In this document: piece after piece, positions 42,318 to 63,600 of the stretch | Numbering within the stretch: position 1 is the stretch's first letter | Layout: each line of letters starts with the position of its first letter | Source: a virus | Lineage: Duplodnaviria; Caudoviricetes | Strand: one strand, 5' to 3' | Length of the DNA stretch: 64,000 nucleotides | IMG/VR virus record: IMGVR_UViG_3300036793_000172 | Span: 1-64,000 of that record | Notes under the pieces: model-generated | Told to the model about the DNA's origin: nothing | Seen by the model: only the letters and a program-made list of their open reading frames with translations | Databases searched by the model: none | Translations under genes and position numbers: made by a program

Positions 42318-43208
42318 TCAGAGGAAGATGTCCTCGGCGCTTCCGTCGTCCACCACACTGGAGGTGGTCTGGATGCTCTGCATGGACGGTGCCTGGCGGG
42401 CACCGGCCGTACGCGGCACCAGACGCGGGTTGCGCTGGGGGTTCCTCTTGGCCGCCGTGCGGACGTTCTCCAGGGTCGCGATCTCCTGCTCGATCGACTC
42501 GGTGGTGCGCGACGCGTCCTTCTCGATCGACGCGCCGAGCGCGAGGTCCGAGTCGGCGTCGGCGATACCGGCCTGGATCTGCAAGCGCGCCAGGCGGATC
42601 GCCGCGAAGGGACGAGAGGTGTCGTCCTTCTTGGACGAGGTCCGCTGGGCGTTGGCGAAGTCACCCTGGAGCGGGAACGCGGTGTTGGGCACCATCGGGT
42701 TGCCCACCCGCACGTCGGACTCGGTCTTGACCTCCGAGAGCGGGCGCGGGTTCTGTGTGCCGTCCACCGGCGCGGTCACGTCCACCAGCTCGTGGAACGC
42801 GGGTGCGCCGATGTCCTGGCCCGGGGTGTAGACCGTGGTGGTCGCGTCGGCGGCCACGTCGTTGGTCGATCCCGGCACCAGGCCCGGGGTCTGCACGTTG
42901 CCCATGGCCTCAGGCGCTTCGGCCTCCTGAGTGGACTGTGTCGCCGGGACGGCCGGAGGCTCAGGCACCGGCTGGGCCGGGTTCTGCGCGTCCGCCTGCT
43001 TGGTCATCGCGGTGACGACCTTGCCCTCGACGCCAGCAAGCTGGCTGAGGTGGCGCAGGCCGAGCCCGAAGCGGTTGATCTGCTCCTGCTGCACCTGGGT
43101 CACGTTGATCAGTGCGGCGACCCGGGCCGCGAGGCGACCGTTGTCCTCGCGCAACTGGGCAATCTCGTTCTGCTGCTCGGCGAGAGCGGCAATTGCTGGT
43201 CGTGCCAT
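42318..43208 (-). CDS. Probable capsid scaffolding protein, 296 aa
   Basis: Between the protease and capsid genes. Coiled-coil N-terminus and P/Q/A/E-rich linker. Confidence 0.62.
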   Translation of the reverse strand: MARPAIAALAEQQNEIAQLREDNGRLAARVAALINVTQVQQEQINRFGLGLRHLSQLAGVEGKVVTAMTKQADAQNPAQPVPEPPAVPATQSTQEAEAPEAMGNVQTPGLVPGSTNDVAADATTTVYTPGQDIGAPAFHELVDVTAPVDGTQNPRPLSEVKTESDVRVGNPMVPNTAFPLQGDFANAQRTSSKKDDTSRPFAAIRLARLQIQAGIADADSDLALGASIEKDASRTTESIEQEIATLENVRTAAKRNPQRNPRLVPRTAGARQAPSMQSIQTTSSVVDDGSAEDIFL

Positions 43209-43251
43209 GGTCTACTCTTCTCCTTCAACCACAATTTTTCTTGTCGTACTG

Positions 43252-45891
43252 TCACTTCTTCTTGGCGAACGGGTTGCTCTTGACAGGCTTCTTCTTGTCG
43301 TCGCCCGCGTCGTCGTCGGTGTCCTTGTCCGGATCCGAGTCGTCGTCCCCGTCGTCATCCGGGTCGGCGAGATCGCGCGGGTCGACCGGGCCCGGGTCGT
43401 CCTTGCCTGGAGGCGCCTGCTCCTCGTCGTCGGGGACGCCGTCACCGTCCTGGTCCTCGTCGCCCTCCGGCGGGGCTCCCTGCTCGCCGTAGGCGCCTTC
43501 CGCGTCCTGAGCGGGCACCAGGACGCCCTTGCCGCACGCCGGGCACACATCACCCTCGGCGGCCTCTCCGCCGCCCTCCATGCCCTCCTGCTGGGTCATG
43601 GGGTCGCTCGACGCCATCGGGTCGGAACCGGCCTGCGGGTCATCGGTGTCGACGGTGGTCGGCTCGGCCCCGCCGAACTCGGTTCCGCAGTTGTCGCACA
43701 CCAGGTCCGGCTGCACGTCCATGCCCGGGTCGTTCGGGTCCGGGACGATCGAGTCGTCGTAGTCCTGCTGCTGCTGGCGCAGGTCGATCTGCTTGGCCTT
43801 GTCCAGGTCGGGGTCCTGGAACATCTTCGGTGGCGCGACGAACCCGCACACGGGGCAGGCGTTGCCGTCCCAGGCGTCGTCTTCGCCGCAGACGGGGCAG
43901 TTCTCCTCGCGGAGGGTGTCCACGTCGGCGGGCGCCTTCGTCTCGCCGTAGGCCGTGTGACGGCTCGCCTGGTACCCGGTGCCCGGCTGCCGGTAGTTCA
44001 TCTCCGGGAGCTTCTGCTTGCGGAAGTCTTCCCACTTCTGCTCGGAGTTGCTGCGCGACTTCTCGCGGCCGACGTTGAGCTGGTAGTTGGTGCCCTTGCT
44101 CTCGGTCTTCTCCCGCTCGCTCTTCTGGTTCAGCCGCTGCTGCGCCAGCCATGTGACCGCCTGCACCTGGTGCCCCGCGATCGGCTGGCCCTCCTTCTCG
44201 GAGATCTGGCGCGCGGCCTCGTGGTAGTGACTCACCACGTGGTCGTAGTTGCGGCGGTTGAGGGATCCGTCCTTGCGCTTGGTACCGGCCAGCGGTGCCT
44301 TCGAGTAGTCCTCGTCCGACATGCGGTGCCCAGCGGCCACTGACAAGGCGTGCCGGTCGACGACCACGTGCGGCACCGTCGGATCCTTGTCGCCGCCGTG
44401 CTCGATCAGGTGCGCGAAGTCGCGGATCTTGGGTCCAGAGAGCACGTCGTTGTAGTTCGCGCCCTTCAAGACCTTGTCGGCGTTGTTCTTCTGACTCTCC
44501 GAGGCGAGGATGCCGCCGCCCTTGCCGCCGATGCCCTTATGCCCGTCCAGGACTCGCGCGGCGTTGTGCATGTTGGCGACCCACGGCGTCTGCGGCGAGT
44601 AGATCGCGAGCATCCCGGCAGCAAGGTGGTTGTCTCCGTGCGGGTGCCGGAGGTCGTGCGGCTCCTGGGGCTCGGGCTCAGAGAATTCCTTGCCAGCAGA
44701 CAAAGCCTTTGACTTGCGCGTCTCGTGCGCTGCGAGCTGGCGGTGGTAGTCGGCGCTCTCGTCGAGCTTCTCCGGACGCACCGGGGCGAGCTTGGAGATG
44801 CTCTTCGCGATGTTGTGCGCGTCCTTGTACCAGGTCTTGCCGGATGCCTTCTCGTCGTCGGTCGCCTGGTTCCACATCTTCACGATGTTGTCGTGGTGCA
44901 CCGGGTGCGCCTGGAACCACGGGTGGTCTTCCACCTTGTCGTACTTCGCGGCCTCGGCCTGGAGCGCGGCTTCACGGTGCGCCTCGTGCCAGGTGTGGCC
45001 GCAGCCGAAGCACTCGGCGTTGCCCCGGGTATCGGCGATGGTGTCCTTGCACCGGCAGGCGAGGCACTGCGACGCCTGCACGAACTTCAGCGATGCCCAG
45101 CGCGATTCCGGCGACGGAGCCGGGAGACGGCGCGGCGGCTCGGGAGTAGTCCATTGCGGACCCGGGTCGATCTGGCGTGCAGCTGTCCGGCGGGTCGAAG
45201 TCATCGCGAGATGGTCAAGGCCGGGACCCAGCTCCGGCTTGCCCAGGAAGTACGCGGTCGGATCAGCCGGGGGCTCGACCAAGAGCGAGTTCTCGAAGAA
45301 CCTCAGCCCGTAGCAGGTCTCCCGGATCAGGGTGCCGACCTTTCGACCGGAACCCGTTACCCTGTAATGGGTTTTGCCCTTCATTCCGGGCACGTGCGCG
45401 CAGTACTCCAGCGGCGTGGTGGCCTTGCGGTTGCACACCGAGCAGATCGAGTAGGCCACGTCCACGCCCATCGACGTGCGCTCGATATGTCCGAGGATGA
45501 TCGCCTTCGCCAGCTTCGGGTATTTGAGCCCGTCGACCTCCATGAGGCCCTCGACCCACGTGTCCGGCGTGCCGTCGGGGTTGCGGTCCTCGTGCAGGGC
45601 CGCGTCGATGATGAGCCCGCGCATGCGCCGGTGGTCGTCGTTGTGGTGGTTGACGAACACGGGCTTGCCGATGAAGGTGCGATAGCCCTTTGCGATCTCC
45701 TCGGCCGGGAACTCGTCGAAGTTGTCATTGCAACGGGAGCTGATCATCCGCGAGCGGACGTACAGCATCCCGTGCTTCGGGGTGTAGCTGAACTCATGCC
45801 GATGGGCGACGCGGGCGTTGGCCGGAAGCTCCACGCCGGACCCGTCACTCCAGTTGGCGCTCAGGATCTCCGCCGTGGCGAACTTCAGCAC
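43252..45891 (-). CDS. Prohead (capsid maturation) protease polyprotein with an inserted domain, Zn ribbons and acidic tail, 879 aa
   Basis: N-domain NDNFDEF..EE...Y.TFIGKPVFVNH...RG.I.DA...TSMG..V.YS.CSVC (His/Ser protease pattern), several CxxC pairs, and a D/E-rich tail ending NPFAKKK. Confidence 0.8.
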   Translation of the reverse strand: MLKFATAEILSANWSDGSGVELPANARVAHRHEFSYTPKHGMLYVRSRMISSRCNDNFDEFPAEEIAKGYRTFIGKPVFVNHHNDDHRRMRGLIIDAALHEDRNPDGTPDTWVEGLMEVDGLKYPKLAKAIILGHIERTSMGVDVAYSICSVCNRKATTPLEYCAHVPGMKGKTHYRVTGSGRKVGTLIRETCYGLRFFENSLLVEPPADPTAYFLGKPELGPGLDHLAMTSTRRTAARQIDPGPQWTTPEPPRRLPAPSPESRWASLKFVQASQCLACRCKDTIADTRGNAECFGCGHTWHEAHREAALQAEAAKYDKVEDHPWFQAHPVHHDNIVKMWNQATDDEKASGKTWYKDAHNIAKSISKLAPVRPEKLDESADYHRQLAAHETRKSKALSAGKEFSEPEPQEPHDLRHPHGDNHLAAGMLAIYSPQTPWVANMHNAARVLDGHKGIGGKGGGILASESQKNNADKVLKGANYNDVLSGPKIRDFAHLIEHGGDKDPTVPHVVVDRHALSVAAGHRMSDEDYSKAPLAGTKRKDGSLNRRNYDHVVSHYHEAARQISEKEGQPIAGHQVQAVTWLAQQRLNQKSEREKTESKGTNYQLNVGREKSRSNSEQKWEDFRKQKLPEMNYRQPGTGYQASRHTAYGETKAPADVDTLREENCPVCGEDDAWDGNACPVCGFVAPPKMFQDPDLDKAKQIDLRQQQQDYDDSIVPDPNDPGMDVQPDLVCDNCGTEFGGAEPTTVDTDDPQAGSDPMASSDPMTQQEGMEGGGEAAEGDVCPACGKGVLVPAQDAEGAYGEQGAPPEGDEDQDGDGVPDDEEQAPPGKDDPGPVDPRDLADPDDDGDDDSDPDKDTDDDAGDDKKKPVKSNPFAKKK

Positions 45892-45926
45892 CGCTACCTC
45901 ACCTCACACATGCCGCTGCCTCTATC

Positions 45927-45958
45927 CCTTCAATGGGTGTGAAACGCATTCCGACAGT
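45927..45958 (-). promoter_or_regulatory. Late-promoter-like motif copy (ACTGT-N22-GAAGG)
   Basis: Upstream of the protease gene. Shares GAAGGGATAGAG with the 63640 copy. Confidence 0.5.
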
Positions 45959-46141
45959 TCACTTGAAGGACGTGAGGTAGCCGTCATGCTCTTCCCAATA
46001 AACCTTGTCACGTGTTCCGCGACGGGTTTTGAGGTACCGCCGGATCTCCGTGACGGTGACGCCGGAGAGCAGGCGACGACCGTTGCGGAGGAGGTCGTAA
46101 CGGTCGTCGCCCTGACGTTCGAGCATCCAGGTGTCGCTCAT
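45959..46141 (-). CDS. Hypothetical protein, 60 aa
   Basis: ATGA overlap with the collagen-like gene. Confidence 0.65.
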
Positions 46142-47013
46142 GTAGTCGGCGGGCTGGTGGTGGGCGTCTGCTCGCACCGGAGGTACGTCGGGCCGGTCGG
46201 GTTGCCCAGTGCGTCGGTGTCCTGGTGCTGCTGGGCCGTGTAGCCGTCCGGGCACGTCGGTCCGGGCTGTCCCTGCGCGCCTTGCTGGCCGGTGGCACCC
46301 GTCGCTCCTGTGGCTCCGGTGTCGCCCTTCACGCCCTGCTGTCCCTGGGCGCCAGTCGCGCCGGTCGCACCCGTATCGCCCTTCACGCCCTGCCCCCCCG
46401 TATCACCTTTTGGGCCAGTCACCGGCGGAGGAATCAACGGTTTGATCAAGTCGGTGAGGTGTTGATCCGACGGGGGCGCGGGGATGAGCGGTTTGATGAT
46501 CGCCAGAAGTTCTTCCGTCGTTGGCGTATGGCCGTTCTGCGGCGGATTCTCGGTGATAACCTGGCGAATGAGAGCACGTAGTTGATCGTCAGTAGGGGTA
46601 AGACCCGGGGTGCCGGAAGGGCCGACAGGGCCCGGGGCGGGAACGGTGGCGACCGGTTTCCCGCCCAGTGCACGCACCTGGTTCTCCAGGGCGTTGCCGT
46701 CTCCCTGCACCTTCGACAACTGGGCTTCGAGCGAGTTGATGTGGCTCTGGTTGTCGGCCGTGGTGCTCTGGATCGCCGTGGTGCGGGCGAACGAGAACAC
46801 CACGGCGATGATGAGAGCACCGAGGACCATCAAGCCAGCGATGCGCCAGCGGCGATCGGTGCGGTCCATCTTGCGCAGGTCGGCGTCACGTGCCTCGATC
46901 TGATCCATCAGGTGCGCAGCACGAGCGCTGACGCGGTACCCGTCGTCACGTTCCACAACGGGGGAGAAGCGGCCGTCTTCCAGGCTTTCTGTCTCAGGTT
47001 CGGTGTGCCGCAT
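46138..47013 (-). CDS. Membrane-anchored coiled-coil plus collagen-like (GXY) protein, 291 aa
   Basis: TM segment [20 protein letters not shown], a coiled coil, and about 17 GXY triplets (about 46259-46417). SD GGAG. Confidence 0.82.
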
Positions 47014-47016
47014 GAT

Positions 47017-48378: not shown

Positions 48379-51300
48379 TTACATAAACAGTTCTTCAGGG
48401 TCCTCGGAATCCATTCCAAGGGCCTTACTGAGGGCTTCGTAGTGGGTGCCCTCGATCTTGAGATCGCCGAAGTTGCGGGCTCGGGCGCCGTCGCGGGCAC
48501 CCTCGTTGATCAGGTCCTGCTGCTCGGCGAAGTCGAAGTCACGCAGGGCGGACTTCTGCAAACCCTTGTCCTGTGCCAAGTAGGCCCGCGCCGAGGCGGT
48601 GAAGTCGAAGCTCACGTCGTTCCCTTCCTGCTTCGCCGGGGTGGCCCCGGTCATGATCCCTTGCGCGGCGGCCGTGGCCTGGAAGCTGGCCACGATGTCG
48701 CCGACCGAGCCGGTGAACTGGTTCGGTGTGGCCGAGCCCTCGTCGGCGTCGATCGAGGAGGCGGTCTCCGGCGGCTGGTACTGCGCGATCGGGTTGTCCG
48801 GCACCGGGTCCTCGGCGCCACCGTCCGTGGACGGCAGTGCGGGCTCCGGCTCCTCGTGCAAGGTCCCGTAGTAGCCCATGGAGTCGTAGGAGTCCGACGA
48901 GAGCAGGTTGGTCGGCACCTCGTCCTCGTTGTTCCAGCTCTTCGGGTCCTCGCTGGTGGCGAAGCCGGTCGAGCCGGGGTTCTGCGAGTTCGAGTGCAGG
49001 GGCGCGGCGTAGGGGAAACCGGGCTGGTCGTCCTCGCCCTGCAACGGCGACCACGAGTCGTGCGCGGCCGTCTTCTGCTCACCCGCCTTGGCGATCTCGT
49101 TCCACGGCGCCGACTTCATTTCCTTACGGAGCGCAGGGTTTTTCTTCGCGTGGTCGATGTCCCACCACGCGGCCTGCTCGTGGCAGTCGCCCTTGGGGTC
49201 GTCCGGGTTGGGGATGACCCTGCCATCCTTCATGGACAAGTCCTTTTCGGACGGGATAACCACCACGTGGCCTTGGTACACACCGTTCGGGGAAGTCCAG
49301 GTGTGGTGGACCACGCCGCCCTCGGGGAACTTCTGGCCGACCTCCTCTTCCCACTCGCGGACGGCCGCGTGCAGGCTCGTGGTGTCGCCCTCCTCGTGGT
49401 GACCGCCGGGCAGCTCCCACGTGCCGCGCGCCGGGTCCTTCTCGTCGTCGAGCCCGCGCTGGAGCATGAGGATGCGGCCCGTGTCGGCGGCCTTCAGTGC
49501 GACGCCGGAGACGGTGGGGCCGTCCTTCTTGGCCGCGAGCACCGGGCCCAGCTCGTCAACGTCCACCAGACCCATCTCGTCATCGAGGCCTCCGGTGTGC
49601 AACGAACTGGTGTCGGAGATGCCGCCGGACATCATCGGGCCCATGTCCGGGTTCTGATCCGAGACCGGGTCGGCCGTGTGCCCTTGACCGTCCTCGGCGA
49701 CCTGTCCCGTGCCGCCGCAGTGGCCGCAGCCCCAACCGGCGCACTGCGGGCAGTTGGTAAGCGGCAGCCCGATCCAGGAGGGGATGCCGTAGCCGAAGTC
49801 GGGCGCGTGCCGCCGGGTGTCGTTGGTCTTGTGGTGCTTGCGCCGTTCGTCGTCGATGACCGAGCCGATGAAGCCGATGGCGTGGCCACAGTGCGAGCAC
49901 TTGTGCTTCTCGATGGCCTCTTCGGTCAGCGTGCCGCCGCAGTACGGGCACTTGCGGCGGTGCTCTTCGTCCTCTTCCTCGGCGACCATCTGCAAAGCGG
50001 CCGAGTGCGTGAGCCCGTACGCCATAAGGATCTTCATGACATCGGCGGGATCGTCGTCGTTGTCGAGCATCGCGCTCGCGATCGTCGACAAGGGACTGTC
50101 GGAGATGCCGGGCACCTCGTCCGGCTCGTGCGCCTCGCCGAAGACGAGAGCCCCGAGCTTGATCTCCCGGCCGAACATGCCCCGGCTCTGCGCCTCGTAC
50201 ATCAGCGCGAGCGAGTGCGAGCACTGGCGGCCGTGGAACCGCAGCCGGTCCCAGGCCCAGTCGCCCCACTTGCAGTCGCACGACCAGTCAGCGATCTTGA
50301 AGGTGCCGGGCCGGTAGGTGATGTAGTTCTGGTACGCGCCGTGGTCGCCCTGGACCTCACCGGCCAGCCCCTCGGTGGTGGCGACCTTGATGTTCACCTT
50401 GCCCTCGCGGCGGATGCGCTTGGCCTTGTTGCGCACGTCCGTCCAGCTCGCGACGACCTGGAACCGGAACTCCTCGTCCTTGCGGGCGGTGCGCAGCATC
50501 AGGGCCGCTGCCTCAGGTGCGATCTGAGGCCTTTGCGACCGTCCCCGACGTGCGTAGTCGTCCATTGCCTTCTGACGACGCTCCTGGCGCTCCTCGGGTG
50601 TCTCCTGGGGCTTCTGCTGCTTCGGGGCACGCGGAGGGGACGGGTACGGGCAGTACCTGTCCGTGCAGTACTTGGTCTTGACGCCGTCCGGATGGTCGGT
50701 GGTCTCCAGGTGCTCCCTGATCTGGCTCTTGAGGAACTGCCGGTTCTCCTCGTGCTGGCGGGCCAGCTCCTCATCGGACACCGCATCGGCGTGACCGGAG
50801 CCGCCGCAGGCCTCACACGTTTCCCGGCGCATCCGGTAGGCGTCCGGGTCCTCCTCCGGGTGAACGCCCGGCTTCTCCTGGTAGTCCGGGTTCTCTTCTT
50901 CAATGTCGTAGTGGCCGTTGCCCTCGCACTCCGGGCACGGACCGGCGGGGATCGCGCTCTCGTGCCGCAGCGACGCGCGGTAGAAGGTGCTCTCCGCCAG
51001 GTTCCGTTGCAGCTGCGTCGGCCGGTAGAGGTCCTTCTTGTCGGCGTTGTCCGGGTGGTCGAGGTCGAGCTTCGGGTCGCCCGGGTCCTGGTAGCTGTTC
51101 CACCACTTCTGCCCGGCTGGCGACCGGCCGCCGTGGTCGAACATGTGGGTCGGGTGCTGACGCCGCAGCTCGTCCTGCATGGCGCTGCCGTAGCCCTTGC
51201 CCCGGCTCTCCTCGTCATAGACCTTCATGTCGTGGATGGCCAGGGCCGGGTGGGCTGGGTCGCCGGGCTTGGTCTTGGAGTAGTAGATCGTCCCCGCGAC

Positions 51301-53893: not shown

Positions 53894-53908
53894 GGCTGCC
53901 TCCTCGCT

Positions 53909-53940
53909 TCTTAGATCGGCATTTCCGGGTCTCAGGCAGG
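53909..53940 (-). promoter_or_regulatory. Late-promoter-like motif copy (CCTGC-N22-TAAGA)
   Basis: Upstream of ATG 53893. Confidence 0.5.
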
Positions 53941-54168
53941 CCCTGCGCAACCTTTCTCGTCCTCGACGGCATCCACTACCGCCTGGGCGAGATCGATCGT
54001 GAACTGGACCGGCTTGCCCAGCAGCGAGCGGGAGGTCACGCAGACCTCGATGCCCGCGCGGAGGATGTCCCGCACGGGTCCGCGCAGTGTGGCCGGTTCG
54101 ATCACGTCGAGGTGCGCCAGGGCCGCCGACATCAGCGACGAGGCGCTGCGTGGGGAGTGCTCGTTCAT
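53932..54168 (-). CDS. Hypothetical protein, 78 aa
   Basis: ATGA overlap with the portal stop. Confidence 0.65.
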   Translation of the reverse strand: MNEHSPRSASSLMSAALAHLDVIEPATLRGPVRDILRAGIEVCVTSRSLLGKPVQFTIDLAQAVVDAVEDEKGCAGPA

Positions 54169-56360: not shown

Positions 56361-56543
56361 TTACTCTGTGGCGGGCTCTTCCGCCACCGTTTCGTCGTCG
56401 GCCTTCTTCAGCACTCCCCAGGAGATGAGCTTATCGACGTGGGTCTGATCCCTGGGTGTTTCGTAAGGGATTTCGACCTGCGAGCCGATCTCGTGCCTGC
56501 CTTCGGGGGAAATCCAGTTGTCCGTCACAATAAATTGCGCCAT
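56361..56543 (-). CDS. Small hypothetical protein, 60 aa
   Basis: TGATG overlap with the upstream gene. Ends before the portal SD. Confidence 0.65.
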   Translation of the reverse strand: MAQFIVTDNWISPEGRHEIGSQVEIPYETPRDQTHVDKLISWGVLKKADDETVAEEPATE

Positions 56544-58429
56544 CAGAATCCATTCTCCTCGCGGATCTTCGTCAGGACTGCCTGCGGGTCGCTGGCGTGG
56601 GCAAGCGCGAGATGGCGCACGTACCGGTCCTCGTCGAGCATCGCGCCGGAAACCGTGCGGTACAACAAGGATTTCTTCGCGAACGGGTTGCCGTCGTCGG
56701 AGTCGTCGCCGCCGTCATCCTCGTCGGGTGGGGCCTGCCCTGGCGGCTGCTCCTGGTCGTCCGGAACCCCGTCACCATCCTGATCGGCATTCGGGTCAAC
56801 CGGTTGCCCAGCGGCCGGATCACCCGGATCCTGACCAGGCCACTGTGGACCCATACCCGGCACCTGCACCGGCATACCATTAATGGTTTGCGGGAAGGCA
56901 GGGTATTGCGGCTGAACCTGCACGGTGAAGCAGGCCGAGCAGAATTGGCATTCGATCGTGCCGTCATTGCGCGCCAGCACCTGACCGGATCCGCAGAAGG
57001 GGCAGTGGAACACCACTTCGGCGTCGCCGGAGTCGTGCGCCATGATCACGATGCGCGGCATGCCCTGGGCGATGGCGCGGGCCACCTTGGAGTGTCCGGC
57101 GCCGCTCCAGCCAACCCGGAGGGCGATGCGCTCGTTGTTGCCCAATGTGGAGTGCAGTCCGTCCACATAGCCCTGGTAGAAGTGCTCCGGGTGCGGCGAG
57201 CTGTCGTGGGCACTGTCCATCTCGGACAAGTCCGCGTTGTCAATGTCGGTCGCGTGCTTCTCCCCGAGCAAATGCCCGTGGTGCCACTCCTGCTCTTCCG
57301 GCGGCAGGTCGTCAAAGGACTGACCCCGGGAGTGCTTGATCCAGTCCTGGGAGGTGAGCTTGCGCTCGACCCCGGCGCCGGAGTGCTCTCCCCGGCCGAA
57401 GTAAGCGTCGTGCTCTTCCTGGCCACCGACGATGCCCGGCTGCTCGAACCGGCGCTGCTGTGCGTCCTGGGCGCGGCGGAACTCGTCCCAGTCGGCCGCA
57501 TAGTGCGGGTTGTAGGTGGTGGTGTTCGCGCTGGTGGTGCCGTTCGTGGTGGTGGTGATGTACGTCGGGCAGTACGTGTGGATGTCCGGGGCGTACCACC
57601 GTCCGGCGTTCCAGTGGCCGTTGGCGCTGGCCGTGTGCCGGTACTGGCCGAGGTCGTGCGCCATCTCGTGCATGTGCTGCGGAAGGATGCCGATCTTCTG
57701 GTCGCCGAACTCGCCGTTCAGGTGCAGGAACGCGTTCTGCCCCCGGGTCTCGCTGGTCATCGCCGGGCGCGCGTGCGGGGAGAACATCTTCGAGTGCGCC
57801 GCGAAGGCCGCCTCCTCGCCGTGGGCGTCGAAGCCACGGCCGGTGGCAGCGTGGCCGAACGCGTCGTGCACCGCGCGGAACTTGTCGTTGTCGTCGTCGG
57901 AGAAGAACGGGTGGCTGCCGGTGCTAGCGGTCTTCAGCACCTTGATGCGCTTGTTGTCGCGCAGATCCGACACCATCTCGTGGACGTTCTTGTACGGGTC
58001 GTAGTCCACCGGGTGGACCTTGATTCCCATGCGGTTCGTCAAGTGATCGTACTGCTGGTTGACTTCGTCGCCCATGCGGTGGAAAGCAGGCACGGCCTTG
58101 TCATCCCAGTCGGGCAGCTTCTGGTACGCCCGGCCGATCGTCTTCAGGTCGTGGGCGTTGGTGCGCACGTCGGCGTAGCTGTGGTCGTGCGGGTCGCCCA
58201 GGCCGACGTTGCGGTTGTAGGCGCGGGCACCCTCGATGATGTTGTGCACGCCCTCGAAGGGCGCGTTGTGCACGTGGTGGTCCTCGCGCCCGACAGCCTC
58301 GGCACGTTCGTCCTGAATGTGCTGGGGAAGGATGAGCGCACCGTGGTGCACGGGCAGACGGCGGCCGTTCGAGGTGTGGTACACCCCGAACTTCTGCTTC
58401 TGCCACAACTCGTGCGGGTGGTTCTCCAC
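56543..58429 (-). CDS. Modular head-region protein: zincin-like domain, Zn ribbon and acidic tail, 628 aa
   Basis: FRAVHDAFGH...GEEAAF..H...ETRGQN, CPFC...CQFC and DQDGDGVPDD...NPFAKK motifs. Confidence 0.75.
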   Translation of the reverse strand: MENHPHELWQKQKFGVYHTSNGRRLPVHHGALILPQHIQDERAEAVGREDHHVHNAPFEGVHNIIEGARAYNRNVGLGDPHDHSYADVRTNAHDLKTIGRAYQKLPDWDDKAVPAFHRMGDEVNQQYDHLTNRMGIKVHPVDYDPYKNVHEMVSDLRDNKRIKVLKTASTGSHPFFSDDDNDKFRAVHDAFGHAATGRGFDAHGEEAAFAAHSKMFSPHARPAMTSETRGQNAFLHLNGEFGDQKIGILPQHMHEMAHDLGQYRHTASANGHWNAGRWYAPDIHTYCPTYITTTTNGTTSANTTTYNPHYAADWDEFRRAQDAQQRRFEQPGIVGGQEEHDAYFGRGEHSGAGVERKLTSQDWIKHSRGQSFDDLPPEEQEWHHGHLLGEKHATDIDNADLSEMDSAHDSSPHPEHFYQGYVDGLHSTLGNNERIALRVGWSGAGHSKVARAIAQGMPRIVIMAHDSGDAEVVFHCPFCGSGQVLARNDGTIECQFCSACFTVQVQPQYPAFPQTINGMPVQVPGMGPQWPGQDPGDPAAGQPVDPNADQDGDGVPDDQEQPPGQAPPDEDDGGDDSDDGNPFAKKSLLYRTVSGAMLDEDRYVRHLALAHASDPQAVLTKIREENGF

Positions 58430-58526: not shown

Positions 58527-58530
58527 ACCC

Positions 58531-59031
58531 TTATTCCTCGTCCTCCGGCCCGTACACGTCGTGCAGGAGCACGCGTGAGGCCAGCGTCACCAGCTCACTC
58601 GCCTCGTCCTCATCGAGCTGACCGAGCACCTCGCGCAGGGACGACTCCTGGCGGATGCGTTCCTCCACGAAGGACTGGGCCTCTTCGGCGATCGCCTGGA
58701 AGTTGGCGGTGTAGCCCGAACTGGCCAGCATGGTCAGCACGCCCAGGCTGCCGTCGGTGTCGTAGGCCTGGCGGGCGCTCGTGTGCGGGACGGGCCCGAC
58801 TTCGAGTGAGTCCTCCAAGCCGTCCTGGACAGCCGCGTATTTCTTGCTTGCTGGCAAGACTTCCGCGCCCAGACTCTGGATCGTCACCTCACCTCGGCGA
58901 CTGCCGTCCAGCCACTGCACGTGCCCGGTGTTGGTGCTCGCGAAGGCGAGCAGGCGGCCGTGATCGCCGAGGGAAAGGCCCTGATGGCCGCCGCCGACGT
59001 AACTCACGGCCTGGCCCTCGTAGAAATTCAC
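58531..59031 (-). CDS. Hypothetical protein, 166 aa
   Basis: The GTG start overlaps the upstream TAG. SD GGAGG. Confidence 0.7.
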   Translation of the reverse strand: MNFYEGQAVSYVGGGHQGLSLGDHGRLLAFASTNTGHVQWLDGSRRGEVTIQSLGAEVLPASKKYAAVQDGLEDSLEVGPVPHTSARQAYDTDGSLGVLTMLASSGYTANFQAIAEEAQSFVEERIRQESSLREVLGQLDEDEASELVTLASRVLLHDVYGPEDEE

Positions 59032-59858
59032 TATGCCTCCGGGTACCTGCGCACGGTGTTCCGGGCCAGGGCCACGACTTCGCGTGGTGTGAGGCCCGGA
59101 TTCTGCTGAGCCACCGAGGTGGCCACACTGACAAGACGACCGGCCCGGGTGGTGCGGCTGGCCGACTTGTAGCTGCGCTTGTTCGGCCTGAAGCCGGTGG
59201 GCGGGTGGTACGGGTCGATCTCCGGGTGCCGGTCGATGTCGGCCAGTGGGCCGCAGCTCGGGCAGTTCCACCAGCCGTTGCCGTTGGCCGCCACTACCAG
59301 GTTGGTGTCCTGGGTGCGGCACCGGAAGTTCGGGCAGGCGGCTCCGCGCAGCACGAGCGGGTTCGAGGCCTGCTTACTGCCGATGAACGGGACCTTCGTC
59401 TGCGTGGACGGGTAGTTGTGCCGCGCCACGGCGGGCGGGTCCACGTCGGTAGTGGGCGTCATGAAGCCGGTGCCGCCGCACTCGCGGCACTTGGTCTTGT
59501 CCTGAAGGTCGTAACCGGAACCGTGGCACACGGGGCAACGCTTCGGGCCCATGTGCGGGTCGTCGGAGTTCGCCATCGGATTCACGCCCGGCATCGGTCC
59601 CTTGTAGACATCCCACCCGGGGATCTCCGAGCCGACGGGGCCGGGGTCGGTGTACGCCTGCTTCGTCATGAAGTCGACGAACTCCGGCTCAGGCTGGGCC
59701 AGCGCGGCGGACACCTGGAAGATGCGCTGCTGCTGGGCCTTGTCGCCCGGGTCGAACAGGTCGATGTCCTGGGATCCGCAGTCGCAGCGGAGACCGGCGG
59801 TTACCCTCTCGACCGCGCCGTGTCCGGCGCAGGACCAGCAGAAGAGGTCGGTCGTCAT
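59031..59858 (-). CDS. Multi-Zn-ribbon protein (DnaJ-like CxxCxGxG motifs), 275 aa
   Basis: CWSC..C.C, CPVCHGSG...CRECGGTG and CPNFRC...CPSC motifs. Confidence 0.75.
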   Translation of the reverse strand: MTTDLFCWSCAGHGAVERVTAGLRCDCGSQDIDLFDPGDKAQQQRIFQVSAALAQPEPEFVDFMTKQAYTDPGPVGSEIPGWDVYKGPMPGVNPMANSDDPHMGPKRCPVCHGSGYDLQDKTKCRECGGTGFMTPTTDVDPPAVARHNYPSTQTKVPFIGSKQASNPLVLRGAACPNFRCRTQDTNLVVAANGNGWWNCPSCGPLADIDRHPEIDPYHPPTGFRPNKRSYKSASRTTRAGRLVSVATSVAQQNPGLTPREVVALARNTVRRYPEA

Positions 59859-61828
59859 CAGTCTTCGTCCTCCTCATCCTGCTGCTGTGGGCGGAGACCG
59901 CCACCGTCGGAAGTGGTTTGCCGGATCGGCTCTTGCGCCCGTTGCGGCGTGTTCACGTTGCGGTCTTCCATGCGCTGGCGGGGCGCCTGGTTGATCTGGC
60001 CCTCCCACGTGCGCTCGTTGAACTCGTCGCCGACGCCGGTCGGGTTGAACATGTCGGGCCGGTCGCGGGTCTGCTCGGCGACCCGGTACACGCCCTGGAA
60101 CGGGTTCGGCGCTGCCATGCCCGCACCCATCCCCGCTCCTGCGCCTCCGCCACCGGCGGGGCTGTTCGGGAAGGGGCTCGACGACACCGACGGGTTGGGG
60201 ATCGTCATCGGCTGCATGGGCGGCATGGCTTCCGCGCCGGGGCCGCCCTGCTGCATCGACGGCGGGGGAGTCGGCGTGCTGCTGCCGCCGGTCGAGTCGC
60301 CCGGGTTCGGACCCGTATCCGTCGAGGATGCGTCCGCGTAATGGGCGGCTGCCTCACGGTCGCCGAACGACGAGTGCTTCGACATCTCCATCGCGCGGAA
60401 GGACGCCTTCGCCTTTTCCTCGGAGTCGTGGTGCGAAAGGACCTTGCCGGTGCCCTTCTGCGTGACCACCCAGCCCTCGCCGTCGGGATTCGGCTTCACG
60501 TACTGATAGTCGGCCGTCTTGGCCGCGTAGTAGCCGGGCCCGAAGGGGTTGGTCGTCTGGCGCTTCGGCTTGGCCGAGCCAGGAGGGGCCGGTGCGGGTG
60601 CGCGGCGCAAGTTCTCCGGCGCGATGTAGGTGTGACCCACCTCGGAGTCCCGGTGCTTCACGCCCACCCAGATGTCGCCATTCGCGTCGTCACCGGGCTC
60701 GGTGACGTGATCGACCTTGCCGACATACCCGGCGGGCACGTCAATGCCCATGTCCGGGTCATGGTGGTCGTGGAGAACCTTGACGTATTCGCCCTTCTGC
60801 AAGGGCTTGCGCGCACCGGAGTAGTGCAGCCGCTGCATCCGCTCCTGCACCCACGGGTGGTCGCCCGGCAGGCGCGGATGGTGGTCCTGGTCTCCTTCGA
60901 GGTGCTTCCACTCGTTCCCGTGCCGGTACACGGGCCGGTTGCAGTCGTAGCAGGCGCCGACGTTCGACCGCTTCCGGTCGGCCACCTCGTTGGGGTCGGG
61001 GGTGGTGACGTAGCCGCCGCGCGCTTCCTTGGTGTTCAGGCCGTTCTCGTTCGAGTACGAATGCCCGTCGCCCTCGGTGCCGGTCGACTGCACCGGCGGC
61101 ACCGCGCCGAAGTAGTCGACGCGCTCGTTCGCCTCGGGCAGGGAGACATCCGCCGGGAAGCCCGCCTGCTGGTCTCCAGCGGCGCCTTCCTCACCCCCGG
61201 CGAAGTAGAAAGGGTTCGGACCGGTTCCGGTCTGCACTCCTTCGTCCTCGTAGCCGACGGCGGCGCTCTTGGTGTTGCCCGGGTTCTGGTACGGGCCGAA
61301 GTTCATCGGCCGGTTCACCCAGAAGTCGGGCTGCTCCTGCCACTGCGACGGCTGCATGGGGAACTCGCCCTGCATCGGGTTCACCGGGTCGCCGCCGGTC
61401 GGGTGCTGCGGGTAGGTGCCCGTCTGGCCCGTCTCCGGCCCCTGCTCCTGCTCACCGCTCGGGTAGTAGGGATTGCCGGGTGTCTCGTCGGCCGCCGACT
61501 GGACGGTGATCCACTGGCCCGAGGCCTCGTGGAAGAACTGCATCGGCTCGGCGGCGGCTTCGGCTGCCTCGGCCGCAGCGCGGGCTTCGGCGTAGATCCC
61601 GTAGTCCTCACGGAAGGACGAGACGACTTCGTCACGCAGGATCTCGTGGGCGACCCGGGCCTCGATCTGGTCCATGGTCAACGCGAGACGGTGTTCGAAC
61701 TCCCGCTCGGTCTGCGCCAGGGCGAGGAACGGCCAGAGGTTCGCCGTGGCCATCTTGGCGACGCCGAGGTCCAGCGCGTGGTGCTCCTCCTCGGCGTCCC
61801 GCGAGGCTTCCAGCCAGAGACTTGTCAT
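59858..61828 (-). CDS. Modular P/Q/G-rich head-region protein, 656 aa
   Basis: Helical N-domain, an SH3-like module, a GKVLSHH..EEKA..S.RAM module and low-complexity linkers. SD GAAGG. Confidence 0.75.
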   Translation of the reverse strand: MTSLWLEASRDAEEEHHALDLGVAKMATANLWPFLALAQTEREFEHRLALTMDQIEARVAHEILRDEVVSSFREDYGIYAEARAAAEAAEAAAEPMQFFHEASGQWITVQSAADETPGNPYYPSGEQEQGPETGQTGTYPQHPTGGDPVNPMQGEFPMQPSQWQEQPDFWVNRPMNFGPYQNPGNTKSAAVGYEDEGVQTGTGPNPFYFAGGEEGAAGDQQAGFPADVSLPEANERVDYFGAVPPVQSTGTEGDGHSYSNENGLNTKEARGGYVTTPDPNEVADRKRSNVGACYDCNRPVYRHGNEWKHLEGDQDHHPRLPGDHPWVQERMQRLHYSGARKPLQKGEYVKVLHDHHDPDMGIDVPAGYVGKVDHVTEPGDDANGDIWVGVKHRDSEVGHTYIAPENLRRAPAPAPPGSAKPKRQTTNPFGPGYYAAKTADYQYVKPNPDGEGWVVTQKGTGKVLSHHDSEEKAKASFRAMEMSKHSSFGDREAAAHYADASSTDTGPNPGDSTGGSSTPTPPPSMQQGGPGAEAMPPMQPMTIPNPSVSSSPFPNSPAGGGGAGAGMGAGMAAPNPFQGVYRVAEQTRDRPDMFNPTGVGDEFNERTWEGQINQAPRQRMEDRNVNTPQRAQEPIRQTTSDGGGLRPQQQDEEDED

Positions 61829-61843
61829 TGCGTCCTTCTTCGC

Positions 61844-62158: not shown

Positions 62159-62184
62159 CAGGCCCTCCTTTCCCCGACAGTCCC

Positions 62185-63600
62185 TCAGCGACCCTGGGTG
62201 CGCAGGAACGCCTGGCGCTGGGCGATGAACTGCTGCGCCTTCGCGATCTCCGGGTCCACGGCCGACTGCTTGCCGTTCACTGGCGGGTTCGGGAACGCCG
62301 GTCCCGCCGGTGCCTGGGTGCTCTGCTGACGGCCACCCATGTCCATCTGCGCGGGCTGGCCCGGCTGCCACTGGCTCGGGTTGTTGGTCTCGTCGTCGGC
62401 TTCCATCGCGCCGTACGGCTTCACCGCGCGGTCGCCCTGGTCGCCGCCGTAGCCGTAGACCGGGTCAGGCTGGCCCAAGTTCGAGGAGGGCGCGTTGCCG
62501 CCGTCCTGCTGTCCCGGGCCGTAGCCACCGGCGCCCATATCACCGGCCCAGCCGGAGTCGTCGTAACCGGCCATCACGCGGCGGTAGGCGGCCTCGGCGG
62601 CGGCCTTGCGCTGCGACGCCTGCGACGCGAGCGGGCTCTTCGCGTTGCGCTCCTGCACCTGCTGCTCGGTCTCGTTGATCGCCTGCGGGATCAGCTTGGG
62701 GTCCATCACCCACGGGAACGCGACCTCAGCCGGAAGAGGTGTCGGCGCGATCTTGGTGTCGGAAGGGTCGACCACCTGCTGGATCTCCGGCAGGCCCGAG
62801 TACGCCTGCTTCGGGAGCTGCGGGGCCTGACGCACGGCCACCCGACCGTGGCCCCCGCAAGTCGGGCACTGTGCGTGCTGCATGGACGCCGATCCTTTCT
62901 TCTGGTTCGCGTCGCCGTTGTCGGCGTCGGCGGTGGAGTTGGTCACGCCGAGACCCGGGTCGTTCTCCGGCGTCACGTCAGAAGCACCCGACGACGGCGC
63001 GCCATCCAGCTCTTGCAGCTGTGGTGCGCGCTCGGAGGTCGTGGCGGTTTCGGGGAGGGCGTTCTCGTAGTTGCCGGTGGGGAACACGTCGAACGTGCCG
63101 CCCCCGGCTTCCGGCAGGGCGTCGGCGACCTTGATGGTGCCGGACTTCACCTCACGGGCGTGCAGAGCGGCCACGTGGGAGAAGAACAGGTCCTCGGCGA
63201 CATCGGCGTCCTCGCCGAACTTGCCGGAGATCTTGCGGGCGACACCCTTGGCCTGCTCGGTGAACTCGGCCGGGTGTTCCTTGACGAGTGACGCGGTTTT
63301 CCCGTACCAGAGGGAAGCCTGGGCGAGGATCTCGTGCTCGTTGGCGCGCAGGTCCGTGCCGGTGTCGATGTCGCCAAGCCAGTCGGTGGCGGCGGTGTGG
63401 TGCTCGTGCACCCGGACCGGGACAAGGTGATCACGCACGACGGCATCGGCAAGGTCGAGTTCGTTGGCCGCTGCCGCCGTGCGGACGTTCGCCGCGCGGA
63501 TCGCGCTGGCTTCGTTCACCAGACGTGTCGCCTCGGCCAGGGACACGCCAGGCTTTGCCGCCTCGGCCATGAGCCGGTGGGCATCGTGGGATGTGGGCAT
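62185..63600 (-). CDS. Modular head-region hypothetical protein, 471 aa
   Basis: SD CAGGAG before ATG 63600. Helical N-domain, CPTC motif and P/G/Q-rich linkers. Confidence 0.75.
   Translation of the reverse strand: MPTSHDAHRLMAEAAKPGVSLAEATRLVNEASAIRAANVRTAAAANELDLADAVVRDHLVPVRVHEHHTAATDWLGDIDTGTDLRANEHEILAQASLWYGKTASLVKEHPAEFTEQAKGVARKISGKFGEDADVAEDLFFSHVAALHAREVKSGTIKVADALPEAGGGTFDVFPTGNYENALPETATTSERAPQLQELDGAPSSGASDVTPENDPGLGVTNSTADADNGDANQKKGSASMQHAQCPTCGGHGRVAVRQAPQLPKQAYSGLPEIQQVVDPSDTKIAPTPLPAEVAFPWVMDPKLIPQAINETEQQVQERNAKSPLASQASQRKAAAEAAYRRVMAGYDDSGWAGDMGAGGYGPGQQDGGNAPSSNLGQPDPVYGYGGDQGDRAVKPYGAMEADDETNNPSQWQPGQPAQMDMGGRQQSTQAPAGPAFPNPPVNGKQSAVDPEIAKAQQFIAQRQAFLRTQGR

What the first reader, a model, noticed from the sequence alone, without database searches (positions are those of the whole stretch)
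42318..63600. Candidate system: head-packaged polyproteins cut by the prohead protease at [K/R/H]-x-A sites to release effector domains
Seen: about 21 kb around the portal and protease encode large modular acidic proteins whose linkers repeatedly contain K/R/H-x-A. Examples: protease MLKFA, RRTAA, HREAA, RHTA; 1531-aa protein RKFA, SRTAA, SKLA, LRTA, QKTAA, QKSA; portal RRTAA, RKTA; 628-aa RHTA, HYAA; 656-aa TKSAA, TKEA, AKTA, DREAA, YRVA; 471-aa VRTAA, IKVA, PKQA; 275-aa TKQA, SKQA; scaffold TKQA, VRTAA; MCP N-terminal GRVA. The motifs often sit exactly at domain edges: before the GNAT and SWIM domains, after the Nudix domain, and on both sides of the protease insert. Established: T4 gp21 and phiKZ gp175 process internal head proteins at short motifs, and polyvalent proteins deliver anti-host enzymes. 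Inference: a cassette architecture in which effector domains are swapped between cleavage tags, packaged, matured and injected with the DNA.
Basis: partly seen in the sequence, partly recalled or inferred. Interest (0 to 1): 0.88.

Follow-up and report, generated by a model that had tools for sequence, protein, structure and literature searches.

The report
Phage head protease cut-site motif
The head proteins of this large actinobacterial phage and its relatives carry far too many copies of a short tag (basic residue, any residue, alanine, then a small residue), placed just where a herpesvirus-like head protease would be expected to cut, so the tag is very probably that protease's cleavage signal, though no cleavage has been measured.

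Summary
In the window's head-module proteins [KRH]-x-A occurs 116 times against about 83 expected (z 4.2; 0 of 400 local shuffles reach it). Mirror and shifted patterns show no excess, and the rest of the genome has none. The signal sharpens to [KRH]-x-A-[AGS] (40 vs 20) and [KR]-T-A-[AG] (8 vs 0.7).

It replicates out of sample in IMG/VR relatives, in Rhodococcus phage E3, in Mycobacterium phage Myrna, and in 132 diverse proteins that begin with the same protease domain ([KR]TA[AGS] 113 vs 16, z 25).

Sites with a variable middle residue are conserved:
- just after the protease domain
- 28 and 44 residues from the scaffold C-terminus
- at residue 17 of the major capsid protein
- in both portal termini
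- at module junctions of the large multi-domain proteins.

The protease domain folds like T4 gp21 and the herpesvirus assemblins. The layout copies herpesvirus pUL26 (release site, maturation site, Ala at P1).

Cleavage itself, packaging of the enzyme domains and their injection remain inferred. Only Nudix and DUF7178 are confirmed by profiles; SWIM falls just below its cutoff and ParB-like and GNAT found no profile match.

This is a new variant of a known kind, directly testable on the isolates Myrna and E3.

The parts
43252..45891 (-). 879-aa prohead protease protein. Assemblin-like protease domain aa 1-237 (45181-45891), DUF7178 module aa 238-647 (43951-45180), double zinc-ribbon and acidic tail aa 648-879.
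   Evidence: phrog_18299 head maturation protease E 2e-20, DUF7178 E 1e-29. AF2 pLDDT 85.8. Fold matches: T4 gp21 Z 10.8, VZV protease Z 9.7. H82, S140 and H166 invariant in 43 sequences.
45181..45189 (-). Candidate release site R235-T-A237 (then A), directly after the protease domain.
   Evidence: Relatives have QRTAS, QRTAT or SKTAS at this place. 106 of 137 family representatives have [KRH].A 8-32 aa after the domain anchor against 60 expected. Logo: K/R - T/A - A - S/A.
43951..43959 (-). Candidate site H645-T-A647 (then YGET), between DUF7178 and the zinc-ribbon tail.
   Evidence: Relatives have RRTAY, SKLAY, HLAY, HVAY, and phage E3 gp77 has KRKQAY. In G001, L008 and L010 the gene is split into separate ORFs at this point.
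42318..43208 (-). Scaffold protein, 296 aa.
   Evidence: Lies between the protease and the cement/MCP genes. It is fused to the C-terminus of the protease protein in G003 and in E3 gp77.
42405..42413 (-). Candidate maturation site R266-T-A268 (then G), 28 aa from the scaffold C-terminus.
   Evidence: LVP-[RK]-x-A-[GST] is kept in all four aligned scaffolds: RTA, KSA, RTA, RAA. The same LVP...RTAS is seen in fused family members.
42453..42461 (-). Second candidate site R250-T-A252 (then A), 44 aa from the scaffold C-terminus.
   Evidence: Relatives have KQA, KRA, KNA at the aligned place.
43194..43202 (-). R3-P-A5 at the scaffold N-terminus.
   Evidence: RTA and RKA in two relatives. In the G003 protease-scaffold fusion the same RPA lies at the junction that precedes the scaffold domain.
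39948..40937 (-). Major capsid protein, 329 aa.
   Evidence: phrog_2522 E 7.5e-105.
40887..40895 (-). Candidate MCP propeptide site R15-V-A17 (then KKSDDYV).
   Evidence: G-L-x-x-[RK]-x-A followed by K/R/P-x-S-D-D/E-Y-V in four relatives, E3 gp79 and Myrna gp99. The middle residue is V, Q, T, I, F, F.
48379..52974 (-). 1531-aa multi-domain (polyvalent) protein. Zinc ribbon about aa 26-92, module 229-410, Cys/Trp module 415-480, SWIM-containing module 826-1012, Nudix 1163-1281, conserved C-terminal module 1304-1531.
   Evidence: NUDIX E 1.6e-13. SWIM 17.8 bits against a cutoff of 19.6. Modules are permuted or missing in relatives.
51727..51735 (-). Candidate site R414-T-A416 (then A), in front of the Cys/Trp module.
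   Evidence: KTAA, KTAA, KTAD and TTAA (twice) directly precede the same module in relatives, where the upstream domains differ.
50485..50493 (-). Candidate site R828-T-A830, in front of the SWIM module.
   Evidence: LRTAA in five relatives and LRAAA in one.
49066..49074 (-). Candidate site K1301-T-A1303 (then A), after Nudix.
   Evidence: KTAA, KQAS, KEAS, KAAS, KEAS, KTAS, KTAA in relatives.
48547..48555 (-). Conserved K1474-S-A1476 in the C-terminal module; weaker candidate.
   Evidence: K-x-A kept in 7 of 8 relatives with x = E, S, T, M, but it lies inside a conserved block.
54165..56348 (-). Portal protein, 727-aa ORF.
   Evidence: phrog_2833 E 1.5e-146. 37% identity to the portals of E3, Gordonia and cluster C phages.
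56157..56165 (-). Candidate portal N-terminal site R62-T-A64 (then A).
   Evidence: All 16 aligned portals keep a basic residue at the aligned place, and most follow it with x then A or G, in an otherwise variable Gly-rich stretch before the conserved core.
54366..54374 (-). Candidate portal C-terminal site K659-T-A661 (then G).
   Evidence: MPKPA-x-[RK]-[KR]-x-A in 9 of 12 aligned portals, with x = T, V, I.
56543..58429 (-). 628-aa protein: phrog_3170 module aa 14-254, variable middle, conserved zinc-ribbon and acidic C-terminal module aa 432-628.
   Evidence: The N-terminal module is found at 84% identity inside a 1050-aa protein of G002, while the C-terminal module is kept in all relatives.
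57629..57637 (-). Candidate site H265-T-A267 (then S), just after the phrog_3170 module.
   Evidence: RHTG in L003. Homology with the G002 protein ends at this point.
59858..61828 (-). 656-aa head-module protein of unknown function.
   Evidence: [KRH].A 14 vs 7.6 expected, z 2.6.
60512..60520 (-). Candidate site K437-T-A439 (then D), in front of the conserved YQYVKPNPDG module.
   Evidence: KLAD and KQAE in relatives.
59031..59858 (-). 275-aa Cys-rich protein (12 Cys, DnaJ-type CxxCxGxG zinc-finger-like).
   Evidence: DnaJ_CXXCXGXG E 1.3e-4, below cutoff. Conserved in relatives.
62185..63666 (-). 493-aa ORF (start uncertain), first large gene of the head module.
   Evidence: [KRH].A 16 vs 8.7 expected, z 2.95. 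R275-x-A kept in 7 of 7 relatives; x-T-A-[AS]-[ST]-D-W kept at aa 90.

Best explanation
The window holds the head-assembly module of a roughly 150-kb actinobacterial myovirus-type phage related to Rhodococcus phage E3 and the cluster C mycobacteriophages.

Its prohead protease is an assemblin-like serine protease. The likely triad is His82-Ser140-His166, inferred from invariance and spacing.

The tag [K/R/H]-x-A followed by a small residue (S/A/G, sometimes T/Y/D) is most probably this protease's recognition site, with the basic residue at P3, Ala at P1 and the cut after Ala. That is the register used by herpesvirus assemblin ([V/L/I]-x-A|S) and by T4 gp21 ([L/I]-x-E|).

Inside the procapsid the enzyme would:
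(1) free itself from its own C-terminal modules at A237 and A647;
(2) cut the scaffold 28 and 44 residues from its C-terminus, detaching the presumed capsid-binding tail;
(3) remove a 17-residue propeptide from the major capsid protein;
(4) trim both ends of the portal;
(5) cut the large multi-domain proteins at module junctions into separate pieces.

Shown here: the motif statistics, conservation and placement, the protease fold, and the fusion, fission and shuffling of modules. Inferred: the cleavage itself, the scissile bond, retention of the pieces in the head, and their ejection into the host.
For: (a) Enrichment is register-specific and limited to the head module. [KRH].A 116 vs 83 (z 4.2, 0 of 400); [KRH].A[AGS] 40 vs 20; mirror patterns null; rest of genome 177 vs 200.

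(b) It replicates out of sample. Six IMG/VR relatives give z 2.7-5.0 for [KRH].A[AGS] in head proteins and 2.2 in a seventh, partial locus, with about 0 elsewhere except in G003, whose non-head set holds large head-module ORFs that match none of ours. E3: 36 vs 16.4 (z 5.1) against 84 vs 78.8 in the rest. Myrna: [KRH].A 94 vs 57.7 (z 6.0). 108,056 aa of C-terminal extensions from 132 family representatives: [KRH].A[AGS] 678 vs 389 (z 16), [KR]TA[AGS] 113 vs 16.4 (z 25), mirror AT[KR] 41 vs 66.

(c) Sites are conserved with a free P2 at functionally telling places.

(d) Assemblin fold: VIA-align Z 10.8 to T4 gp21, 9.7 to VZV protease, 7.5 to HCMV protease. The top 14 Foldseek rows are all T4 gp21 or herpesvirus proteases. 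H82, S140 and H166 are invariant.

(e) The layout equals herpesvirus pUL26: release site after the protease domain, maturation site about 37 aa from the scaffold C-terminus, P1 Ala (PMC4498786). G003, E3 gp77 and Myrna gp97 are true protease-scaffold fusions.

(f) Natural gene fission falls at the predicted sites. The protease gene is three ORFs in G001 and L008 and two in L010, broken at about aa 240 and 643.

(g) Family members carry GNAT, Nudix and DUF7178 fused to the protease, with tandem tags such as HTASKTAS between the domains.

(h) Codons differ among sites.
Against: No proteomic, N-terminal or biochemical datum exists for any member that I could find; the E3 proteome paper is not held.

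About 70% of [KRH].A matches are expected background, so individual sites are uncertain.

Across BLAST alignments the motif as a class is not better conserved than control tripeptides (0.35 against 0.32-0.46).

The association with homology-block edges is modest (20 vs 12.8).

Foldseek E-values are weak (best 6e-3, TM 0.33-0.46).

The three-dimensional juxtaposition of H82, S140 and H166 was not checked, and H166 sits next to an invariant Cys cluster, so it could be a metal ligand instead.

Some conserved sites have G at P1 or lack the basic P3 (TTAA).

Packaging of the multi-domain proteins rests only on gene position, on fusion to the protease in relatives, and on the E3 GenBank label 'structural protein' for gp70, which is not a detectable homologue of the window's proteins.
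Confidence: 0.6

Rival explanations
1. The tag is a short docking motif, not a cut site. It would be bound by the capsid inner surface, the scaffold, the portal or a protease exosite to recruit proteins into the procapsid, and stay intact.
For: The same statistics fit any shared recognition function. T4 uses capsid-targeting sequences to load internal proteins (named in PMC10052503).
Against: A loading signal needs one copy per protein, yet many proteins carry several, often in tandem and between domains. Its position right after the protease domain and near the scaffold C-terminus mirrors known cleavage sites. Gene fission occurs at the same points.
Confidence: 0.12
2. The tag is cut, but by another enzyme or at another bond, for example a trypsin-like cut after the basic residue by a host or second phage protease.
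For: The basic residue is the most constrained position besides Ala. The scissile bond is inferred only by analogy.
Against: No second protease was found in the module. His substitutes for K/R, which is unusual for trypsin-like specificity. Ala and the small P1' residue are conserved, as in assemblin sites. The tag is confined to proteins that meet the prohead protease.
Confidence: 0.1
3. The tag has no function of its own. It is a linker remnant carried along when modules are duplicated and shuffled, so related linkers inflate the counts.
For: Modules clearly move between proteins. Family sequences are not independent.
Against: The tag precedes unrelated modules and also occurs in MCP, portal and scaffold, which do not shuffle. 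The middle residue and the codons vary while K/R/H and A are kept. The mirror pattern is not enriched. The signal persists between phages with only 37% portal identity.
Confidence: 0.08
4. Chance or composition artefact in Ala-rich, high-GC proteins.
For: The motif is short and degenerate; about 83 matches are expected by chance in the head proteins.
Against: Local shuffles that keep composition in 10-40-aa blocks never reach the observed count. Equally Ala-rich non-head proteins show no excess. Out-of-sample z is 16-25.
Confidence: 0.02

Closest known systems
Herpesvirus assemblin / pUL26 protease-scaffold system (MEROPS S21)
   Same: Fold (Z 9.7 to VZV protease, 7.5 to HCMV). Candidate Ser-His-His triad. 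Protease domain of about 240 aa followed at once by a release site. A second site a few tens of residues from the scaffold C-terminus. Ala at P1 and a small residue (Ser/Ala) at P1'. True protease-scaffold fusions in G003, E3 and Myrna. The related phage Myrna has a T=16 capsid like HSV-1 (PMC7150772).
   Different: P3 is basic (K/R/H) instead of V/L/I. The protease carries an invariant four-Cys cluster. Extra enzyme modules are inserted between protease and scaffold or encoded in neighbouring giant proteins. MCP and portal also carry sites. Sequence identity is only 12%.
T4 gp21, phiKZ gp175 and SPN3US gp245 processing of internal and ejection proteins
   Same: Best structural match (T4 gp21, Z 10.8). 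One short P3-x-P1 motif reused in MCP, portal, scaffold/core and internal head proteins. Several motif copies per substrate. Self-cleavage of the protease (PMC10052503).
   Different: P1 is Glu there and Ala here. Known substrates there mostly lose an N-terminal propeptide, whereas here tags lie between several catalytic modules of one chain. In many members here the protease itself heads the multi-domain chain.
Polyvalent proteins of phages and conjugative elements (Iyer et al. 2017, PMC5512222)
   Same: Very large phage proteins that combine unrelated enzymatic and zinc-ribbon modules, are encoded beside the portal, are predicted to be packaged, and show extreme domain mosaicism. Release of domains by embedded peptidases was proposed there.
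   Different: That survey found zincin-like metallopeptidases as the hub domain, and assemblin-like peptidases only at C-termini. Here the assemblin domain is N-terminal (all 150 best hits), no metallopeptidase was detected, and a defined inter-module tag is proposed. Actinobacteria are not among the lineages that survey names as over-represented.
HK97 gp4-type prohead proteases (S78)
   Same: Same clan; gene order protease - scaffold - MCP.
   Different: No Pfam S78 or S77 match. HK97 has no separate scaffold and cuts a delta domain.

Membership tests
Assemblin-like prohead serine proteases (herpes S21 / T4 gp21 S77 clan) | Assemblin fold | tested here: met
   AF2 model pLDDT 85.8. VIA-align Z 10.8 (rmsd 2.6 A over 126 residues) to T4 gp21 and 9.7 to VZV protease, well above unrelated rows. 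Foldseek ranks 1-14 are all T4 gp21 or herpesvirus proteases, though E is only 6e-3 to 0.1.
Assemblin-like prohead serine proteases (herpes S21 / T4 gp21 S77 clan) | Conserved Ser nucleophile with His (and a second His or Glu) | tested here: inconclusive
   H82, S140 and H166 are invariant in 43 sequences, with T4-like order and spacing. Their spatial juxtaposition was not examined, and H166 adjoins an invariant Cys cluster.
Assemblin-like prohead serine proteases (herpes S21 / T4 gp21 S77 clan) | Gene placed with scaffold and major capsid protein genes | tested here: met
   Order protease - scaffold - cement protein - MCP, the same in E3 and Myrna.
Assemblin-like prohead serine proteases (herpes S21 / T4 gp21 S77 clan) | Proteolytic activity on capsid precursors | not testable with these tools
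   Needs biochemistry or virion proteomics.
Herpesvirus pUL26-type protease-scaffold architecture | Release site directly after the protease domain and maturation site near the scaffold C-terminus, P1 Ala | tested here: inconclusive
   Conserved [KRH]-x-A-[SAG] at both places. That they are cut is inferred.
Polyvalent proteins (Iyer et al. 2017) | Two or more unrelated effector-type domains in one phage polypeptide | tested here: met
   In the 1531-aa protein: NUDIX E 1.6e-13, a SWIM block at 17.8 bits against a cutoff of 19.6, and several zinc ribbons. In the protease protein: protease domain plus DUF7178. ParB-like and GNAT are not confirmed.
Polyvalent proteins (Iyer et al. 2017) | Context of a portal/terminase packaging module | tested here: met
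   The large proteins flank the portal on both sides.
Polyvalent proteins (Iyer et al. 2017) | Packaged in the virion and delivered to the host | not testable with these tools
   Indirect only: the same domain types are fused to the prohead protease in P0135, P0138 and P0141.
Prohead-protease-processed internal head proteins (T4 IPs, phiKZ/SPN3US ejection proteins) | One recurring cleavage motif shared by MCP, portal, scaffold and internal proteins | tested here: met
   Statistical and comparative evidence.
Prohead-protease-processed internal head proteins (T4 IPs, phiKZ/SPN3US ejection proteins) | Processed forms observed in mature virions | not testable with these tools
   No published data found.

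The most novel reading that the evidence does not exclude
A very large clade of actinobacterial phages (over 2,700 protease clusters at 50% identity, including the cluster C mycobacteriophages with herpes-like T=16 capsids) uses an assemblin with herpesvirus-type Ala-at-P1 specificity. This clade has turned the cut-site tag into a universal 'cut here' joint. Any enzyme module flanked by the tag can then be fused to the protease, the scaffold or a neighbouring carrier protein, loaded into the procapsid, excised and delivered with the DNA. That would explain the rampant fusion, fission and permutation of modules.
Probability: 0.35. Interest if true: 0.8.

Novelty: new variant of a known kind. 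Interest (0 to 1): 0.66.

Why it matters
If the tag is the cleavage signal, the mature virion proteome of hundreds of sequenced cluster C mycobacteriophages and of Gordonia and Rhodococcus phages can be predicted from sequence. That covers mature MCP, portal and scaffold fragments and a set of released enzymes.

Mis-annotations can be corrected; Myrna gp97, for example, is noted as 'tape measure' in RefSeq.

It adds a substrate-specificity link (Ala at P1, release and maturation sites) to the known structural link between tailed phages and herpesviruses, in a lineage that also shares the T=16 capsid.

It also suggests a simple rule for loading foreign proteins into these capsids. The prediction can be tested at once on isolates that are already in culture collections.

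Tried and rejected
- The first AF2 run of the protease domain, with six sequences, gave pLDDT 52 and was discarded. A 43-sequence alignment fixed it.
- Pfam finds no protease family for the domain, even at E 10. A PDB sequence search found nothing for the protease or for DUF7178.
- The class-wide conservation test on BLAST alignments did not separate [KRH].A from control tripeptides. Most matches are background, and linker alignments slip by one or two residues, so I relied on per-site alignments and out-of-sample counts instead.
- The test against homology-block edges was only modest.
- Pfam and NCBIfam did not confirm the ParB-like or GNAT assignments in the 1531-aa protein, nor any family for the 493-, 656- and 628-aa proteins beyond PHROGs of unknown function.
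- An Atlas look-up of the putative GNAT segment failed because the machine was busy.
- The HhH-glycosylase idea for DUF7178 from other notes could not be tested.
- The E3 proteome paper is not in the library. Five literature searches found no cleavage data for this lineage.
- A DNA-repeat explanation was rejected because the codons differ.
- Complex prediction was not used, because an enzyme-substrate pair is outside what that test can judge.
Full report
WHAT THE WINDOW IS. The window is the first 64 kb of a 90.8-kb IMG/VR virus record, 65% G+C and estimated 59% complete. Nearly all genes lie on the minus strand. Its portal is 37% identical to the portals of Gordonia, Rhodococcus (E3, Finch) and cluster C mycobacteriophages, including Myrna.

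The head module, read 5' to 3' on the minus strand, is:
- a 493-aa ORF, then proteins of 656, 275 and 628 aa
- the portal
- an HNH_3-like gene on the opposite strand
- a 1531-aa protein
- small membrane proteins and a collagen-repeat protein
- an 879-aa protease protein, then the scaffold
- a Phage_cement_3 protein and the major capsid protein.

IS THE MOTIF MORE THAN CHANCE?

In the 12 head-module proteins [KRH].A occurs 116 times against 81.9 expected from shuffles (z 4.3). In the other 75 proteins it occurs 177 times against 200 (z -1.9). Shuffling only inside 10-, 20- or 40-residue blocks keeps local composition and gives the same result: z 4.2, and 0 of 400 shuffles reach the observed count.

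The effect is register-specific. A.[KRH], [KRH]A, A[KRH], [KRH]...A and [DE].A are not enriched.

It sharpens to [KRH].A[AGS] (40 vs 20) and to [KR]TA[AG] (8 vs 0.7 in head proteins, 0 vs 2.4 elsewhere). In an unbiased count of 15,040 three- and four-residue words, RTAA (5 vs 0.19) ranks behind five zinc-ribbon CxxC words and QNPG.

The codons used at the sites differ, so the constraint is on the protein.

OUT-OF-SAMPLE REPLICATION.
- IMG/VR relatives. Seventeen were fetched (portal 53-87% identical), three of them complete genomes of 150-155 kb with terminal repeats. In seven that I analysed, head-module proteins give z 2.2-5.0 for [KRH].A[AGS]. Other proteins give about 0. The exception is G003, whose 'other' set holds unmatched giant head-module ORFs.
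- Phage E3. Five large head-module proteins give 36 vs 16.4 (z 5.1). The rest of 100 kb gives 84 vs 78.8.
- Myrna. gp87, gp89, gp96 and gp97 give [KRH].A 94 vs 57.7 (z 6.0).
- The wider family. A profile of the protease domain finds 2,736 clusters among 1.84 billion representatives. The best 150 all carry the domain at the N-terminus of proteins of 249 to 2,422 aa. In 108,056 aa of their C-terminal extensions, [KRH].A[AGS] is 678 vs 389 (z 16) and [KR]TA[AGS] is 113 vs 16.4 (z 25). The mirror AT[KR] is depleted at 41 vs 66.

WHERE THE CONSERVED SITES LIE.
- After the protease domain. RRTA-A at aa 235-238 corresponds to QRTAS, QRTAT or SKTAS in relatives. In 106 of 137 family representatives a [KRH].A lies 8-32 residues after the domain's PADP anchor, against 60 expected. 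The logo is P3 K68/R30/H8, P2 T40/A28, P1 A, P1' S52/A22, P2' K/R.
- Between DUF7178 and the zinc-ribbon tail. RHTA-Y corresponds to RRTAY, SKLAY, HLAY, HVAY, and to KRKQAY in E3.
- Scaffold. LVP-RTA-G, 28 residues from the C-terminus, corresponds to RTAT, KSAS and RAAS. A second site 44 residues from the end corresponds to KQA, KRA and KNA. An R-x-A at residues 3-5 lies, in the G003 protease-scaffold fusion, exactly at the junction before the scaffold domain.
- Major capsid protein. G-L-x-x-[RK]-x-A is followed by K-x-S-D-D-Y-V in four relatives, E3 and Myrna. The middle residue is V, Q, T, I, F, F.
- Portal. One site lies in the variable N-terminal stretch and one in the C-terminal MPKPA-x-RK-x-A.
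- The 1531-aa protein. Tags stand in front of the Cys/Trp module (RTAA, KTAA, KTAD, TTAA), in front of the SWIM module (LRTAA in five relatives) and after Nudix (K-T/Q/E/A-A-S/A).
- The 628-aa and 656-aa proteins. Tags stand after phrog_3170 and in front of the YQYVKPNPDG module.

MODULARITY. The blocks of the 1531-aa protein (26-92, 229-410, 415-480, 826-1012, 1148-1531) occur in different orders, numbers and proteins in relatives. The N-terminal module of the 628-aa protein sits at 84% identity inside a 1050-aa protein of G002.

The protease gene is one ORF here. It is two ORFs in L010 and three in G001 and L008, broken at about aa 240 and 643, that is at the two predicted sites. In G003, E3 and Myrna the protease protein ends in the scaffold.

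Other family members carry several GNAT domains, Nudix and DUF7178 behind the protease domain. Tandem tags such as HTASKTAS lie between DUF7178 and Nudix. Fusion to the prohead protease is the best available argument that such enzyme modules enter the procapsid.

THE PROTEASE. With a 43-sequence alignment AF2 gives pLDDT 85.8. VIA-align against 48,161 chains puts T4 gp21 first (Z 10.8, rmsd 2.6 A over 126 residues), followed by the VZV (9.7), HCMV (7.5) and KSHV (6.4) proteases. The first 14 Foldseek rows are the same two families, at weak E-values.

H82, S140 and H166 are invariant, with T4-like order and spacing. Four invariant cysteines (150, 153, 164, 193) suggest an inserted metal site.

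MECHANISM PROPOSED. Assemblin-family enzymes read P3-x-P1. Herpesviruses use [V/L/I]-x-A|S, at a release site after the protease domain and a maturation site that removes the capsid-binding C-terminal tail of the scaffold (PMC4498786). By established knowledge, T4 uses [L/I]-x-E|. SPN3US reuses one motif in the MCP, the portal, the protease itself and the ejection proteins, often several times per propeptide (PMC10052503).

The layout here reproduces the herpesvirus plan with a basic P3. I therefore read [K/R/H]-x-A|(S/A/G) as the cleavage signal. It would be used for self-release, scaffold release, MCP and portal trimming, and dissection of the multi-domain proteins. All cleavage steps, and the fate of the fragments, are inferences.

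LIMITS. Roughly 70% of the matches are background. As a class the motif is not better conserved than control tripeptides in BLAST alignments. The domain-edge statistic is modest. ParB-like and GNAT assignments in the 1531-aa protein are unconfirmed. No experimental cleavage data for the lineage were found.

COMPARISON AND NOVELTY. Prohead-protease processing of internal proteins, polyvalent proteins (PMC5512222) and assemblin Ala-Ser specificity are each known. Three things are new here:
- the predicted specificity for this large actinophage clade
- the N-terminal protease heading polyvalent chains
- the use of the tag as a general inter-module joint.

The scan's other first-reader notes on this genome propose the same linker idea; none had been followed up.

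Noticed in passing
window 42318-63666, head proteins; e.g. 1531-aa protein about aa 1325 and 656-aa protein about aa 180: Two further short words are over-represented in head proteins: QNPG (5 vs 0.08 expected) and NPF (5 vs 0.47). NPF-AKK ends the protease protein and recurs in the 628-aa protein. They could be a second kind of short linear signal, for example for capsid binding.
   Followed up: no
window 43255-43950 (protease tail) and 56546-57148 (628-aa C-terminal module): Both carry the same DQDGDGVPDD(E/Q)EQ-PPG stretch (BLASTP E 6e-6). It resembles a calcium-binding Asp-rich repeat and is followed by an acidic run and NPFAKK.
   Followed up: partly
window 45298-45444 (protease domain aa 150-193): Four cysteines (C150, C153, C164, C193) are invariant in 43 family members, which suggests a metal site inserted in the assemblin fold between the Ser and the second His.
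   Followed up: no
L030 2560-5121 (G001) and L008 15022-17215: In two independent relatives the protease, DUF7178 and tail modules are three ORFs in different frames that overlap by about 25-29 nt (measured in G001). These are either separate genes or programmed frameshifts that make fused and unfused forms.
   Followed up: partly
L038 18701-22336 (Mycobacterium phage Myrna gp97): The RefSeq note calls gp97 'tape measure', but it begins with the assemblin-like protease domain, and its C-terminal tail carries the basic-x-Ala sites and ends hydrophobic (SLMFG) like the scaffold tails of relatives. It lies directly upstream of the cement and capsid genes, so it is the protease-scaffold fusion.
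   Followed up: partly
window 53021-53545 (+): A 174-aa HNH_3-like endonuclease gene (E 1.2e-3, below cutoff) lies on the opposite strand between the portal and the 1531-aa gene, overlapped by a long minus-strand ORF (52976-54337).
   Followed up: no
window 46138-47013 (-), 47017-47773 (-): A 291-aa protein with a transmembrane segment and collagen triple-helix repeats (E 1.6e-9), and two small membrane proteins, sit in the middle of the head module between the polyvalent gene and the protease.
   Followed up: no
window 41669-42253 (+): A 194-aa acidic ORF with high third-position G+C lies on the plus strand between the scaffold and cement genes and has no family match. It is the only plus-strand candidate gene inside the capsid gene row.
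   Followed up: no
L036 36599-38410 (E3 gp76, annotated LysM-like): E3 gp76 is a short homologue of the 1531-aa protein. It keeps only the SWIM block and the last roughly 90 residues, so that C-terminal piece is the most widely conserved part and may anchor the protein in the head.
   Followed up: partly
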